A stretch of DNA of 64,000 bases from a virus, in IMG/VR virus record IMGVR_UViG_3300018428_005148, positions 36,651-100,650 of that record; one strand, written 5' to 3'. Below the pieces are notes generated by a model. It searched no databases and was not told the origin of the DNA. It saw only the letters and a list, made by a program, of their open reading frames with translations. How positions within the stretch are numbered: position 1 is the stretch's first letter; every line of letters begins with the position of its first letter. This document shows, one piece after another, positions 51,759-54,264 of the stretch. The position numbers and the translations under genes are program-made.

Positions 51759-52597
51759 TACATGTAGGTTTCTAATTGCCCTTCGCGATATAGGTCCTGG
51801 GTCACACAGTGGATGCCGTTGTCCCAAAACTCTTTGTGTCGAAAATCACACACTATAGGATTGACCTTGTGCCTTTCCAGGAATCTCATTAGTCCTGTGT
51901 CCATGCTGGTAGAGATACAGTTCGAATCATTGACCGACAGTATGTTCACATCATAGTTGCTCTCCTCGTGGTCGCCTCCCCATTCGTGCTTTAACGGCGT
52001 CACCTTGTTCTGTTGGCGAGCGTAATACACTTCCCAGCCTTTGTAAATTTCCTCCATGCTCCTAAAGTCCTCTGACGCCACTATGACACCTGGTTTGATT
52101 ATGCTGTACACGCCGTCCATGTGCCAGCCTTTCCTCGTGATGCTGACCCTTATTCCCTGGTCTGACAACCATTGGATTATTTCCTTCTCGACATCCTGTT
52201 TCACAAACCTACTCACGTCCCAATGCACGTGGTCCCCACAACGCACCATGTTTCCGGTAGATACATCATTGTCCAAATACCATTTGATGTTTTTCCTGTC
52301 TATTGAGGACAGTATGTCCTTGTATCCCGGAATGACCTTTCCAACCAGTATCTTGTCACCAATCACAGCAAAGTAGTCTCTCGGAGATATCGGTGGTCTA
52401 TCACTGCCCTCCACCACTAGTGGCCTGTGGCACACCACTCCAAAACCTTCCAGCAGTTTTATAAGACCCTGTAGGTCCTCCTCGGTTTCGTGCATGATGT
52501 CCTCTAGCCTGGGGTCATGGACGCCTGCCACATGTGGTCTACCCACGATGCAGTGCTTCAATTCATGGAATGTGGCGTGTCCCTTTATCGGTATCAT
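51758..52597 (-). CDS. Amidinotransferase (glycine/scyllo-inosamine amidinotransferase, pentein fold)
   Basis: LKHCIVG, PRD, HMDG, DVNILS, catalytic GIHCVT. Confidence 0.85.
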   Translation of the reverse strand: MIPIKGHATFHELKHCIVGRPHVAGVHDPRLEDIMHETEEDLQGLIKLLEGFGVVCHRPLVVEGSDRPPISPRDYFAVIGDKILVGKVIPGYKDILSSIDRKNIKWYLDNDVSTGNMVRCGDHVHWDVSRFVKQDVEKEIIQWLSDQGIRVSITRKGWHMDGVYSIIKPGVIVASEDFRSMEEIYKGWEVYYARQQNKVTPLKHEWGGDHEESNYDVNILSVNDSNCISTSMDTGLMRFLERHKVNPIVCDFRHKEFWDNGIHCVTQDLYREGQLETYM

Positions 52598-52998
52598 TTC
52601 TTGATGATGCCCTTACCGTGTACCCTCACACGTATGTGACCGTTGTAGTATTTGTCACTCTCCAGCACTTTCCTGGCGAACTGCTCCCTGGCCTCCACGT
52701 AACTTAATTCTGCTTTGGACTTGCAGTAAAACAGTATCTCCCTGTCAAACTTGTCTTTTCCAATTTTCTGTATGTCTGCTGTGAGTTCGTCACTGCTTCC
52801 GTAGTAATCCCGCCAGTCCGAATCCACCTTGTACCTGCGCTTGTTCTTCCTGCCCTTCAGTGGTGGCCTGGATCTTTTGAACCTGGCCAACTTCTTGCCT
52901 ATGTACATCCTGCCGTTGGTTGTGTTGGTAATTTGGTAAACGAAACCCACCACGTCTTCTGGTAAGTCATCCACTGTTTTTTGCTCGTAAATCCACAT
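52594..52998 (-). CDS. Stand-alone GIY-YIG nuclease
   Basis: GFVYQITN..NGRMYIGKK, YYGSS, conserved Glu and YYN. No C-terminal DNA-binding domain. Confidence 0.85.
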   Translation of the reverse strand: MWIYEQKTVDDLPEDVVGFVYQITNTTNGRMYIGKKLARFKRSRPPLKGRKNKRRYKVDSDWRDYYGSSDELTADIQKIGKDKFDREILFYCKSKAELSYVEAREQFARKVLESDKYYNGHIRVRVHGKGIIKK

Positions 52999-53022
52999 TG
53001 CCAATATTTAAAGTCAAAAAGA

Positions 53023-53051
53023 TTGACCTTACAATTTAAAGAGTATAAACA
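53023..53051 (+). promoter_or_regulatory. Putative sigma70-type promoter
   Basis: TTGACC followed by TATAAA (15 nt spacer) or TAAACA (17 nt spacer). Confidence 0.5.
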
Positions 53052-53052
53052 A

Positions 53053-53482
53053 GTGCGATAGGCACACAAACACAATTCTTACAAATTCACACAGGCAAAC
53101 ATAGCATCCATGAAGTGAGCACGGAAATGCGGCAGTAATGCGACAGGTGAATCCGTTGATGCAAAAGGCAAAAATGATGGGGCTCTGAGAAACAGCAACC
53201 CCAGGTCTGCTATGGATTATCTTACAAAGACATGGCGGGCTCGCGTTGGATGAATAAGCGAATGGGTACAGCACAACCGCCCAGTTACGACAGCATTGTA
53301 TGATGACTGCGAACTCACCACAGGGTTCAAGTCAGTTCGGCTAGAAATAGCCGAATTGTGACTGCTCATCTACCACAGGCGACGCATAAATGCGTCATTA
53401 AGTTTTACAACTGCGTAAGTTAAAAAAACAAACGAGCGTAAGCGAAGTTTCAGATGGCGCAAGCCGGCTGTTGAATCGCCAT
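53053..53482 (+). ncRNA. Putative large structured non-coding RNA (family not recognised)
   Basis: The only long ORF-poor gap in the window. About 10 consecutive helices, GNRA loops, and G-U pairs that form only on the + strand. Confidence 0.55.
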
Positions 53483-53496
53483 TAAGTATTGCAACA

Positions 53497-54264
53497 ATGC
53501 AGATGATGTTCGACCACACCTTCGGAAAACAGGAACAGCAGGACCTAGTCGTGGCCAAACCCATGTGCATATTCGAGCGTGAGGAGGAGCAGGGCGCGAT
53601 AGAGCACGGGTGGCTGGCCCTGGACGAGCCCATACACGGAAAAGAAGTTTTCTACCAGTCACGCAGTACACGTGTGAACATGAGGAAGTGGCGCCCACGT
53701 TTCCGGGAACACAAACTGAACGGTAAACAGATAGAGTACAAGATCATAGAGGCCTCCGACATGGTGAGGCTGTTGGGACTGCCCCAAATATACGAGCGAT
53801 ACATGAAGCGGAAAAAATTTGGCGCGGACTACACGCCGTTCCGGCACCACCACAAGCGGGACCGTTTCATGGTGTTCTACACAGGAACCGCTGACAACAT
53901 AGTGGCGTTCACCAAGCAGAAGTTGTACATCGCGGAGGACCCACACTACTCGCAGATCGGCGACCCCTACGTGGAGTACGCGGGCGTGGAGAGTTGCATA
54001 CACGCCAACACCGCACCCATAGGTGCGCTCACATTGGACCTCGAACTGAAGTGGGCCTCAGAGCACCAGGTGCCCTTCTACTACACGGGATCAGGATACG
54101 AACGGAGCTCGGAGTACAAGAGCAGTTGGAGGGGATTCGAGTGGTGGACGGGTGTGGAGTGGACCAACAACAGGCGTCTGTACAAGAGGCTGTGCGGGCG
54201 TGATTCTAAGTTGACTAGGTTTTCCGAGCTCGGAAACCTTTCACTGATTCCAGATAAGCGTTAG
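53497..54264 (+). CDS. Aminoacyl-tRNA-protein transferase-like protein (ATE1/Bpt family)
   Basis: GW, IYERY, IGALTLDLELKWA...FYYTGSGY...YK..W.GFE parallel the ATE C-terminal LG....L.EI..A....YYLGY...YK motif. Confidence 0.62.
   Translation: MQMMFDHTFGKQEQQDLVVAKPMCIFEREEEQGAIEHGWLALDEPIHGKEVFYQSRSTRVNMRKWRPRFREHKLNGKQIEYKIIEASDMVRLLGLPQIYERYMKRKKFGADYTPFRHHHKRDRFMVFYTGTADNIVAFTKQKLYIAEDPHYSQIGDPYVEYAGVESCIHANTAPIGALTLDLELKWASEHQVPFYYTGSGYERSSEYKSSWRGFEWWTGVEWTNNRRLYKRLCGRDSKLTRFSELGNLSLIPDKR

What the first reader, a model, noticed from the sequence alone, without database searches (positions are those of the whole stretch)
53023..53490. Candidate novel large structured ncRNA (~430 nt) between a minimal GIY-YIG nuclease and an aminoacyl-tRNA transferase
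Seen: the only long non-coding gap, preceded by a sigma70-like promoter and tiled with helices. These are GCATC/GATGC (53104-08/53158-62) enclosing GCA-GTAA-TGC; TGGGG/CCCCA (53178-53203); a 10-bp GTCTGCTATG/CATGGCGGGC stem with three G-U pairs (53205-53240); TCGC/GCGA; TGGG/CCCA; GAACTC-ACCACA-GGGTTC (53311-28); AGTCA-GTTCGGCTA-GAAA-TAGCCGAAT-TG-TGACT (53330-63); GACGCA-TAAA-TGCGTC (53381-96); and ATGGCG/CGCCAT (53454-82). G-U pairs and GNRA loops favour a + strand RNA. The downstream gene has its own TAAGTA, so this need not be a 5' UTR. I recognise no tRNA, tmRNA, RNase P or intron motifs. Hypotheses: an RNA partner or guide for the divergent GIY-YIG that lacks a DNA-binding domain; a tRNA-like or decoy RNA for the ATE-like enzyme; or a replication-origin primer RNA.
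Basis: partly seen in the sequence, partly recalled or inferred. Interest (0 to 1): 0.85.

Follow-up and report, generated by a model that had tools for sequence, protein, structure and literature searches.

The report
Twin-box structured RNA of marine phages
The gene-free gap holds a real gene for a knotted non-coding RNA of about 415 bases that is common in uncultured marine giant T4-like phages, is missed by RNA catalogues, and shows one 7-letter word twice, the two copies always mutating together, as if it grips two copies of a partner that is still unknown.

Summary
Window 53056-53473 (+) encodes a large structured RNA. It occurs in at least 142 distinct forms in IMG/VR contigs. A 17-helix model with a 9-bp pseudoknot is 90.9% paired in 65 diverse sequences, against 31-39% in slid controls, and 53 of 87 pairs show compensatory changes. 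No Rfam family matches this sequence. It looks like a gene of its own: it has a conserved promoter-like region, ends in a hairpin that carries a U tract in many homologues, and in 16 of 90 loci is followed directly by a convergent gene. Seawater metatranscriptome contigs contain it.

Two 7-mers (53317-23 and 53372-78) are identical to each other in every RNA yet differ between RNAs, and no complement exists inside the RNA.

This scan has already met the same family on other DNA ("twin-box RNA"). I confirmed that it is probably related to longer bacterial RNAs whose 5' third is the orphan Rfam motif Polynucleobacter-1 (RF01718).

The GIY-YIG gene is a frequent neighbour, not a demonstrated partner. 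The downstream ORF does have an ATE1/FemX-like aminoacyl-tRNA transferase fold. Function is unknown; the best guess is a trans-acting scaffold that docks two copies of an outside partner.

The parts
53023..53049 (+). Promoter-like region: TTGACC (53023-28), 15-nt spacer, TATAAA (53044-49). The transcription start is inferred near 53056.
   Evidence: Read from the sequence. The -35 block is conserved in 81 homologues. The -10 position is TATAAAC or TTATATA in alignment A2. The consensus scan does not call it because the spacer is 15 nt. Inferred, not shown.
53056..53473 (+). Twin-box RNA gene, about 415 nt, single copy in the 100.6-kb genome fragment.
   Evidence: nhmmer gave 156 hits and 142 distinct sequences in viral contigs. 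One copy in the genome fragment. Metatranscriptome contigs of 4 studies contain it.
53060..53098 (+). Variable 5' leader with repeated AGGCA words: 2 copies here, up to 4 in homologues.
   Evidence: Alignment A2, columns 20-100.
53104..53162 (+). 5' domain. P1 is 53104-08/53158-62. It encloses P2 (53121-25/53152-56) and an inner hairpin (53129-48) with a GUAA loop.
   Evidence: helices 1-3. G53129.U53148 alternates with A.C.
53178..53203 (+). P3 hairpin, 53178-82/53199-203.
   Evidence: helix 4: 98% paired, with a G-C to A-U swap in 29 versus 31 sequences.
53204..53241 (+). P4, an 11-bp stem (53204-14/53231-41). Nine nucleotides of its loop (53218-26) form the 5' strand of the pseudoknot.
   Evidence: helix 5 (10 of 11 pairs compensatory) and helices 6-7.
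53297..53305 (+). 3' strand of the 9-bp pseudoknot with 53218-26.
   Evidence: Found by mutual information and by the helix search. helices 6-7: 96-97% paired, 6 pairs compensatory.
53256..53296 (+). Junction helix 53258-59/53293-94 flanked by tandem G.A/A.G. It encloses P5 (53263-67/53279-83, loop ACAGCACAACC) and a UACG mini-hairpin (53284-91).
   Evidence: helices 8-10. The loop is unchanged in all loci that the second, independent pattern scan brought in and that entered alignment A2. One sequence in A2 has a single change.
53311..53328 (+). Hairpin that presents twin box 1 (53317-23, ACCACAG).
   Evidence: The stem is only 70% paired (helix 12), but a divergent clade compensates it as GAUAC/GUAUC.
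53333..53358 (+). P8, an 11-bp hairpin with a GAAA loop, lying between the two boxes.
   Evidence: helix 13: 96% paired, 5 compensatory pairs.
53372..53378 (+). Twin box 2 (ACCACAG), single-stranded, preceded by GUGACUGC-UCAUCU.
   Evidence: six of the seven columns are identical to box 1 in 65 of 65 sequences (the seventh in 91%), while the word varies between RNAs. No complement inside the RNA.
53381..53428 (+). Variable region: a hairpin at 53381-96, GCGUAA repeats and an A-rich linker.
   Evidence: helix 14, 53% paired, many indels.
53429..53451 (+). P10: 53429-33/53447-51, tandem G.A/A.G pairs, and a GC-GUAA-GC tip.
   Evidence: helices 15-16; all 5 outer pairs compensatory.
53452..53473 (+). 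Terminal hairpin 53452-58/53463-69. Many homologues follow it with a U tract, as in an intrinsic terminator; here the tail is weak (CUGUUGAAUC).
   Evidence: helix 17 (97% paired). U tracts are visible in A2. Homology to loci with a different downstream gene ends here.
52594..53004 (-). Divergent neighbour: a 136-aa SegE-type GIY-YIG nuclease made of the catalytic domain only.
   Evidence: PF19835, E 7e-38. 41% identical to P-SSM2 PSSM2_218. Divergent and adjacent in 85 of 109 loci.
53497..54264 (+). Downstream neighbour: a 255-aa protein with the fold of aminoacyl-tRNA-dependent transferases.
   Evidence: No Pfam, NCBIfam or PDB sequence hit. The AlphaFold2 model has pLDDT 85. Foldseek best match is human ATE1 (E 5.6e-6), followed by aminoacyl-phosphatidylglycerol synthases, yeast ATE1 and FemX.

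Best explanation
Window ~53056-53473 (+) is an independently transcribed gene for a ~415-nt pseudoknotted non-coding RNA. It belongs to a family carried by uncultured marine giant T4-like phages.

The conserved helices, the pseudoknot, the GNRA and UNCG loops and the tandem G.A motifs build a rigid scaffold. That scaffold displays two identical single-stranded 7-nt boxes on either side of a GAAA hairpin. The boxes act as a changeable specificity element. They dock two copies of an outside partner, or two identical sites on one partner. The partner is most likely a short single-stranded nucleic-acid segment, for example tRNA anticodon loops.

The GIY-YIG gene is a neighbour that sits beside a highly conserved gene, not a subunit.

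Shown: the RNA is real, structured, on the plus strand and widespread; the two boxes vary in lockstep; the RNA is independent of any single neighbouring gene. Inferred: the transcript ends, action in trans, and what the boxes bind.
For: Structure: 87 pairs are 90.9% paired in 65 sequences that are under 93% identical, against 31-39% with slid partners. 53 pairs and 649 cells show both-side changes, against 24-27 pairs and 79-106 cells in controls. 0 of 500 shuffles reach these values.

Spread: more than 120 plus 73 viral contigs by two independent pattern scans, and 142 distinct sequences.

Stand-alone gene: the downstream gene differs between loci. 16 of 90 loci have a convergent gene directly after the terminal hairpin, and many homologues have a U tract after that hairpin.

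Presence in RNA libraries: a 424-nt contig covers 53004-53425 in run X5, and further pieces lie in X1, X6 and X9, four studies in all.

Boxes: six of the seven columns are identical between the two boxes in 65 of 65 sequences, the seventh in 91% (ACCACAG, GCCACAG, AGUACAC/G, AGCACAU, ACGUGAU, ACAUGAU, AGAUGAU). The flanks differ consistently (CUC versus UCU). No partner column exists in the RNA. The bacterial branch follows the same rule.

In the predicted fold, box 1 sits in a hairpin loop and box 2 is unpaired.
Against: - No experiment or raw-read data define the 5' and 3' ends. The runs were chosen because they hold this stretch, so the contigs cannot show preferential expression, and DNA carry-over is not excluded.
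- In 57 of 90 loci the ATE-like ORF follows within about 25 nt on the same strand, so read-through or a leader role is possible.
- The partner of the boxes is unknown. A 7-mer cannot be traced in genomes, and no third covarying copy was found in the held flanks.
- Lockstep variation could also come from a coevolving dimeric protein, or from contacts between RNA molecules.
Confidence: 0.5

Rival explanations
1. Cis-acting leader of the ATE-like gene. It would work like a T-box: the boxes read a tRNA as a codon plus a purine, and the terminal hairpin acts as a regulated terminator in front of ORF255.
For: - ORF255 is adjacent on the same strand in 57 of 90 loci.
- ORF255 has the fold of aminoacyl-tRNA-dependent transferases.
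- The terminal hairpin sits 7-24 nt before the ORF.
- UCAUCU (53366-71) can pair with the 5' strand of the hairpin (AGAUGG), and 53251-55 competes for the 5' strand of P8, with covariation.
- Read as codons, box positions 1-3 give ACC/ACG/ACA, AGU/AGC, GCC and AGA in phages. In the bacterial branch they are AGC, GAC, AUC, GUC and GGC (one box reads UGC), all ending in C. A purine mostly follows.
- In L009, L012 and L072 an ORF255 homologue lies divergently upstream, so it is still adjacent after a rearrangement.
Against: - No T-box or other riboswitch match at E up to 10.
- 16 of 90 loci have a convergent gene directly downstream, and others have unrelated genes.
- The bacterial branch has variable downstream genes and no ORF255.
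- 415 nt with two identical boxes is unlike any known leader.
- The proposed anti-terminator pairing has no covariation behind it.
Confidence: 0.15
2. A self-assembling ornate RNA, like ROOL or GOLLD. The twin boxes would be contact points between copies of the RNA or with a dimeric protein, and there would be no nucleic-acid target.
For: The RNA is large, carried by phages and pseudoknotted, with GNRA loops and no constant protein neighbour. Two identical elements suit symmetric assemblies.
Against: The boxes are not self-complementary and have no complement in the RNA. No Rfam hit to GOLLD or ROOL. Contacts that are not base pairs rarely allow the free variation seen at five of the seven positions.
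Confidence: 0.1
3. RNA partner or guide of the divergent GIY-YIG nuclease, which lacks a DNA-binding domain.
For: Divergent and adjacent in 85 of 109 loci, and still nearby after insertions or inversion in 19 more. The supplement of Weinberg et al. 2010 noted that most Polynucleobacter-1 RNAs lie beside a homologue of PSSM2_218. That gene belongs to this GIY-YIG family.
Against: - The same small GIY-YIG family is in 569 phage records, 339 of them Synechococcus phages. The window's GIY-YIG-RNA-ORF255 stretch matched no record of the phage collection by blastn. In Melnitz and P-SSM2 no room for the RNA lies beside the gene.
- 5 phage loci lack the GIY-YIG in the held upstream DNA.
- All 17 bacterial-branch loci lack it, and 13 of 13 with upstream DNA have DUF6641 in its place. 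DUF6641 is unrelated (hhalign probability 0.1%).
- Free-standing Seg-type endonucleases typically settle beside highly conserved genes (established knowledge of T4 seg genes).
Confidence: 0.05
4. A bivalent guide for DNA recombination, analogous to a bridge RNA. The two identical boxes would match the identical 6-8-bp crossover core that two partner sites of a tyrosine recombinase must share.
For: In the bacterial branch a small tyrosine recombinase of 188-212 aa (little more than the ~170-residue catalytic domain that the Pfam model matches) lies 0.3-1.5 kb downstream on the RNA's strand in 5 loci. The module sits in a genomic island next to a Zorya operon.
Against: None of the held phage loci was seen to carry a recombinase next to the RNA (I compared them only with the window's own genes). 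No extra copies of the box at fixed places in the flanks. Integrases are common in islands in any case. No literature precedent found.
Confidence: 0.05
5. Replication-origin primer RNA, or an element that acts at the DNA level such as iterons.
For: Direct repeats and an early-type promoter are present. T4 oriE lies near baseplate genes (established knowledge).
Against: Compensatory changes that preserve G.U pairs on one strand only, and a pseudoknot, point to selection on a folded RNA. GC skew only tracks gene orientation.
Confidence: 0.03

Closest known systems
Polynucleobacter-1 RNA motif (Rfam RF01718; Weinberg et al. 2010, PMC2864571)
   Same: Genuine RF01718 members from Burkholderiales genomes continue 3' for about 350 nt with the same landmarks in the same order:
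- a hairpin whose loop reads ACAGCGAAACC (here ACAGCACAACC);
- twin boxes after GAACUC and GAAUCU, on either side of a hairpin;
- a helix with GAGCG..AAGCGAA;
- a terminator hairpin.
The 2010 supplement says most members lie beside a homologue of PSSM2_218. That gene is 41% identical to the window's GIY-YIG. Both are orphans with unknown function.
   Different: The Rfam model covers only the 141-nt 5' part, and it does not score on this window or its genome at E up to 10 or on 8 divergent phage loci at E up to 1. Statistical support for homology of the 3' core is marginal: my covariance model gives E 0.006-0.025 for two of four genome loci, and nhmmer gives E 6.8e-5 for one metagenome locus. 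The bacterial members have DUF6641 upstream and a small integrase downstream, not GIY-YIG and ORF255.
GOLLD and ROOL RNAs (Rfam RF01998, RF03087; PMC12286853)
   Same: Large, intricately folded orphan RNAs that are often carried by phages or prophages and have no obligate protein partner.
   Different: No sequence or structure match. Those RNAs are larger and form RNA-only cages. No twin covarying boxes have been described for them.
T-box riboswitch (works-like comparison only)
   Same: A structured RNA that reads a variable triplet plus a purine on a tRNA and ends in a terminator hairpin upstream of a gene that deals with aminoacyl-tRNA.
   Different: No match to RF00230. There are two identical boxes rather than one specifier plus an NCCA-binding bulge. 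The RNA is often not followed by any co-oriented gene.
IS110 bridge RNA (PMC11208158)
   Same: An ncRNA with two programmable single-stranded elements that hold two nucleic-acid partners.
   Different: Bridge RNAs are about 180 nt, lie inside IS110 elements beside a DEDD recombinase, and their two loops carry different guides. Here the boxes are identical, and none of the held phage loci was seen to carry a recombinase beside the RNA.
Free-standing Seg-type GIY-YIG homing endonucleases of T4-like phages
   Same: A small GIY-YIG gene placed right beside a very conserved gene. This is the usual position of intron-less homing endonucleases (established knowledge; Pfam SegE_GIY-YIG hit).
   Different: This concerns the neighbour, not the RNA. 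The 136-aa protein has the catalytic domain only.

Membership tests
Polynucleobacter-1 RNA (RF01718) | Scores at or above the Rfam gathering threshold (37 bits) with the family covariance model. | tested here: not met
   No hit at E up to 10 in window 52900-53600 or in the whole 100.6-kb genome fragment. None at E up to 1 in 8 divergent phage loci. Genuine members score 67-82 bits.
Polynucleobacter-1 RNA (RF01718) | Homology of the remainder of the RNA, 3' of the Rfam part, to the window RNA. | tested here: inconclusive
   Model R1, built from window 53241-53383 and 64 homologues, hits directly 3' of the RF01718 match on the same strand in all 4 genome loci, but only weakly: E 0.006, 0.025, 0.32 and 1.4. 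nhmmer gives E 6.8e-5 for L349. The landmarks are collinear and the twin-box rule holds.
Polynucleobacter-1 RNA (RF01718) | Neighbour gene of family GOS11034, a homologue of PSSM2_218 (2010 supplement). | tested here: met
   Supplement text. PSSM2_218 against the window GIY-YIG: 41% identity, E 5e-26.
Twin-box RNA (this scan's own unpublished family) | Two identical 7-nt boxes that covary in parallel and flank a GNRA hairpin; a pseudoknot; an invariant hairpin loop; uncultured marine T4-like phage hosts. | tested here: met
T-box riboswitch | Match to RF00230: Stem I with a specifier loop and a T-box antiterminator with a UGGN bulge. | tested here: not met
   cmscan of all 4227 families at E up to 10 gave only two chance hits.
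tRNA, tmRNA (including two-piece), RNase P RNA, group I/II introns, GOLLD, ROOL, HEARO | Detection by ARAGORN or by the Rfam covariance models. | tested here: not met
Aminoacyl-tRNA-dependent transferases (ATE1, Bpt, aa-PGS, FemX; tandem GNAT) for ORF255 | The tandem-GNAT fold of this superfamily. | tested here: met
   AlphaFold2 model with pLDDT 85 and pTM 0.84. Foldseek: ATE1 8tzv_A E 5.6e-6 with TM 0.55, then aa-PG synthases, yeast ATE1 and FemX.
Aminoacyl-tRNA-dependent transferases (ATE1, Bpt, aa-PGS, FemX; tandem GNAT) for ORF255 | Sequence-family membership and catalytic or tRNA-binding residues. | tested here: not met
   No Pfam, NCBIfam or PDB sequence match. Active-site residues were not examined.
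SegE-type GIY-YIG nuclease (PF19835) for 52594-53004 | Match above the Pfam cut-off. | tested here: met
   130 bits against a cut-off of 25, covering residues 4-124. No C-terminal DNA-binding domain: the protein is 136 aa in total.

The most novel reading that the evidence does not exclude
The twin-box RNA is a programmable bivalent adaptor. Each box would base-pair with the same short single-stranded target, holding two partner molecules side by side. In phages these could be two tRNAs read through their anticodon loops for the neighbouring ATE/FemX-like aminoacyl-tRNA transferase. In the bacterial branch they could be two DNA sites for the small tyrosine recombinase. Either would be a new class of RNA-guided or RNA-templated enzyme system whose specificity is reset by changing both boxes together.
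Probability: 0.12. Interest if true: 0.9.

Novelty: new variant of a known kind. Interest (0 to 1): 0.62.

Why it matters
Few bacterial or phage RNAs of this size and complexity are known, and those that were solved proved to be ribozymes, guides or unusual assemblies. This one is abundant in ocean viromes, is invisible to current RNA catalogues, and extends an orphan motif from 2010 to about three times its catalogued length.

The two boxes that mutate in lockstep are a rare, directly testable clue to a specificity code. Changing both boxes should retarget the RNA.

The family also exists in Polynucleobacter-type bacteria, which can be cultured. There it sits beside DUF6641 and a small recombinase, so genetics is possible even though the marine phages have no cultured host.

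Tried and rejected
- Rfam at gathering score on the whole window, at E up to 10 on the gap, and at E up to 1 on 20 other loci: only chance hits.
- ARAGORN on the window, on all phage loci and on the genome fragment: no tRNA or tmRNA here. I followed the two-piece tmRNA known from Melnitz and pelagimyophages (PMC9004378) and dropped it.
- blastn of the GIY-YIG-RNA-ORF255 stretch against 50,697 phage records: no match. Phage PA5oct shares the gp46 ... baseplate-hub synteny and has an unannotated gap, but I detected no homologue.
- The 16-mer scan of genome contigs returned 120 loci, all chance matches.
- T4 EndoII/DenA idea for the 136-aa GIY-YIG: no PDB sequence match; dropped.
- DUF6641 as a hidden GIY-YIG: hhalign probability 0.1%. 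Its AlphaFold2 model is mediocre (pLDDT 69) and has no fold match.
- DUF6641 in the phage fragment: none.
- Search for a complement of the boxes inside the RNA, and for extra box copies at fixed places in the flanks: none. ACCACAG occurs 25 times in the window against 13 expected; I judged this uninformative, since codon usage could explain it.
- Literature searches for GIY-YIG-associated RNAs, RNA-guided tyrosine recombinases and DUF6641 found nothing relevant. The supplements of Fremin et al. 2023 are not held.
- Metatranscriptome contigs cannot rank expression of the RNA against its neighbours, so I make no such claim.
Full report
**What is there.** The window is part of a 100.6-kb IMG/VR virus record that CheckV rates 29% complete, so it comes from a giant T4-like phage. 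Its markers are gp46/SbcC, a baseplate hub and a tape-measure-like protein. The closest cultured gp46 proteins are 44-49% identical and belong to jumbo phages such as PA5oct, Phosso and a 349-kb Vibrio phage. The gap 53005-53496 separates a 136-aa SegE-type GIY-YIG gene on the minus strand (PF19835, E 7e-38) from a 255-aa ORF on the plus strand.

- Four syntenic viral contigs found through the 255-aa ORF align across the gap. The gap is more conserved than the proteins, which are 65-89% identical, and it has long invariant blocks and visible compensatory changes.
- Exact-pattern scans with two different invariant blocks returned more than 120 and 73 viral contigs.
- An nhmmer profile then found 156 hits: 107 full length and 142 distinct sequences.
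They also revealed a 9-bp pseudoknot between the loop of the long stem (53218-26) and 53297-305.
- On a tool-made alignment of 65 sequences under 93% identical (A2), my 87-pair, 17-helix model is 90.9% paired, against 31-39% for partners slid by 1-3 columns. 53 pairs show both-side changes (controls 24-27), 649 cells show such changes (controls 79-106), and the covariation score is 0.374 (controls 0.04-0.07). None of 500 shuffles reaches these values.
- Conserved G.U pairs and a G.U to A.C exchange fix the strand as plus.
- Folding energy alone does not discriminate (z -2.66 on plus, -2.51 on minus).
Details are in the observation check.

**Is it a gene of its own?** The RNA always lies in the slot between gp46 and the baseplate hub.
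- Upstream, among 109 informative loci: the GIY-YIG gene is divergent and adjacent in 85, divergent but 0.6-2.8 kb away in 15, on the same strand in 4, and absent from the held upstream DNA in 5.
- Downstream, among 90 informative loci: the 255-aa ORF is adjacent on the same strand in 57. In 16 a convergent gene follows directly, and the rest have other genes.
- Homology to loci with other downstream genes stops at the terminal hairpin 53452-69. Many homologues follow that hairpin with a U tract.
- A TTGACC-N15-TATAAA promoter-like region is conserved, although the consensus scan does not call it.
- Logan contigs of seawater metatranscriptomes from four studies contain the RNA. One example is a 424-nt contig covering 53004-53425. 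Because the runs were selected with this stretch, this shows presence in RNA libraries, not relative expression.
- The genome fragment has one copy and no tRNA or tmRNA gene.

**The twin boxes.** The 7-mers 53317-23 and 53372-78 (ACCACAG here) match each other at six of seven columns in 65 of 65 aligned RNAs, and at the seventh in 91%. Between RNAs they differ: ACCACAG, GCCACAG, AGUACAC/G, AGCACAU, ACGUGAU, ACAUGAU and AGAUGAU. The three bases before them differ consistently between the two copies (CUC versus UCU). That sharp boundary argues against simple gene conversion.
- No column elsewhere in the RNA covaries with the boxes.
- Box 1 sits in a hairpin loop and box 2 is single-stranded, on either side of the GAAA hairpin.
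- The simplest reading is a changeable recognition element used twice.
- Read as a triplet plus the next base, the boxes resemble T-box specifiers: ACC/ACG/ACA, AGU/AGC, GCC and AGA in phages, and codons ending in C in the bacterial branch, mostly followed by a purine. This is a pattern I saw, not a test.

**Relation to what is known.**
- Rfam 15 has no match for this sequence, for the genome fragment or for 20 other loci.
- Earlier follow-ups in this scan had met the same family on other genomes and named RF01718 as the closest known. I tested that. RF01718 does not score here.
- Three genuine RF01718 members (67-82 bits) and one sub-threshold match (25.8 bits), all fetched from Burkholderiales genomes, continue 3' of the 141-nt Rfam part for about 350 nt. 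Those 350 nt carry the same landmarks in the same order, including twin boxes that obey the identity rule.
- A covariance model of the window's core (R1) hits exactly that place in all four genome loci, but weakly (E 0.006 to 1.4). nhmmer reaches E 6.8e-5 for one metagenome member.
- The supplement of Weinberg et al. 2010 states that most Polynucleobacter-1 RNAs lie next to a homologue of cyanophage gene PSSM2_218. That gene belongs to the window's GIY-YIG family (41% identity, E 5e-26).
- I therefore regard the window RNA as a phage branch of a larger family whose bacterial 5' third is RF01718. Homology is probable but not statistically proven.

**The bacterial branch.** It comprises 4 genome loci plus 13 metagenome loci.
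- A DUF6641 gene is always divergent just upstream, in 13 of 13 loci with upstream DNA.
- A small tyrosine recombinase of 188-212 aa lies 0.3-1.5 kb downstream on the same strand in five loci.
- In one genome the module sits between that integrase and a Zorya operon.
- There is no GIY-YIG and no ORF255. DUF6641 is unrelated to the GIY-YIG and has no fold match.

**The neighbours in the window.**
- The GIY-YIG family is found in 569 phage records, mostly cyanophages, and at 60% identity in OM43 phage Melnitz. In the two I inspected (Melnitz and P-SSM2) the RNA is not beside it. It is therefore not dependent on the RNA. Its position beside an extremely conserved gene fits a free-standing homing-type endonuclease.
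- ORF255 has no sequence-family hit. Its AlphaFold2 model (pLDDT 85) matches human ATE1 best (E 5.6e-6), then aminoacyl-phosphatidylglycerol synthases, yeast ATE1 and FemX.
- In three divergent loci a 27%-identical ORF255 homologue lies divergently upstream of the RNA in place of the GIY-YIG. This is a hint of a real link, and it keeps the tRNA-related readings alive.

**Verdict.** This is a real, widespread, pseudoknotted ncRNA of about 415 nt and unknown function. My best reading, at about 50%, is a stand-alone trans-acting scaffold that presents two identical, changeable 7-nt boxes to an outside partner. The rivals are a T-box-like leader of the ATE-like gene (15%), a self-assembling ornate RNA (10%), a guide for the GIY-YIG (5%), a recombination bridge (5%) and an origin primer RNA (3%).

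It is not categorically new. This scan has already recorded the family, and it probably extends an orphan Rfam motif. The full-length architecture, the pseudoknot and the twin-box rule are not in the literature I could search.

Noticed in passing
window 53497-54264: The 255-aa ORF has no sequence-family match. Its predicted fold (pLDDT 85) is that of aminoacyl-tRNA-dependent transferases: ATE1, aminoacyl-phosphatidylglycerol synthases and FemX.
   Followed up: yes
L290-L293, L294 (G052:C4:64000-82000) and metagenome loci L301, L309, L387, L399 and others: Bacterial/freshwater branch of the RNA family. A DUF6641 gene is always divergent upstream (13 of 13 loci). A small tyrosine recombinase of 188-212 aa lies downstream on the same strand in 5 loci. 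In G052 the module sits next to a Zorya ZorABCD operon, so it is in a mobile or defence island.
   Followed up: partly
window 53251-53255 versus 53335-53339 and 53352-53356: UGAAU can pair with the 5' strand of the GAAA hairpin, with covariation (53253:53337 is AU in 79, UA in 10 and GC in 4 sequences). It competes with the hairpin's own 3' strand. This could be an alternative conformation or a base triple.
   Followed up: partly
window 53366-53371 and 53452-53457: UCAUCU, just 5' of box 2, is complementary to AGAUGG, the 5' strand of the terminal hairpin. This could be an anti-terminator pairing. Both sides are nearly invariant, so covariation cannot test it.
   Followed up: no
window 53060-53098 and 53381-53428 (alignment A2): Short repeated words of variable copy number: AGGCA (2-4 copies) in the 5' leader and GCGUAA (2-4 copies) before the A-rich linker. 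They may be protein-binding sites.
   Followed up: no
L009, L012, L072 (and L099): In a divergent phage clade an ORF255 homologue (27% identity) lies divergently just upstream of the RNA where the GIY-YIG usually is. The GIY-YIG is 2.2-2.8 kb further away in L009, L012 and L099.
   Followed up: no
L290 and other bacterial members: In the commonest bacterial form the box word AGCGAAA also occurs in the conserved hairpin loop (ACAGCGAAACC) and in the 3' GAGCG..AAGCGAAA helix, giving four copies in one RNA. In this window the loop reads ACAGCACAACC, and one phage clade uses AGCACAU as its box.
   Followed up: no
window, whole: ACCACAG occurs 25 times on both strands, against 13.2 expected (sd 3.6). 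Codon usage could explain this; I did not test it.
   Followed up: no
L289 (Pseudomonas phage PA5oct, 74404-77856): PA5oct shares the gp55-gp47-gp46 ... baseplate-hub synteny. At the equivalent place it has about 660 nt of unannotated DNA with hairpins, but no detectable homologue of the RNA.
   Followed up: partly
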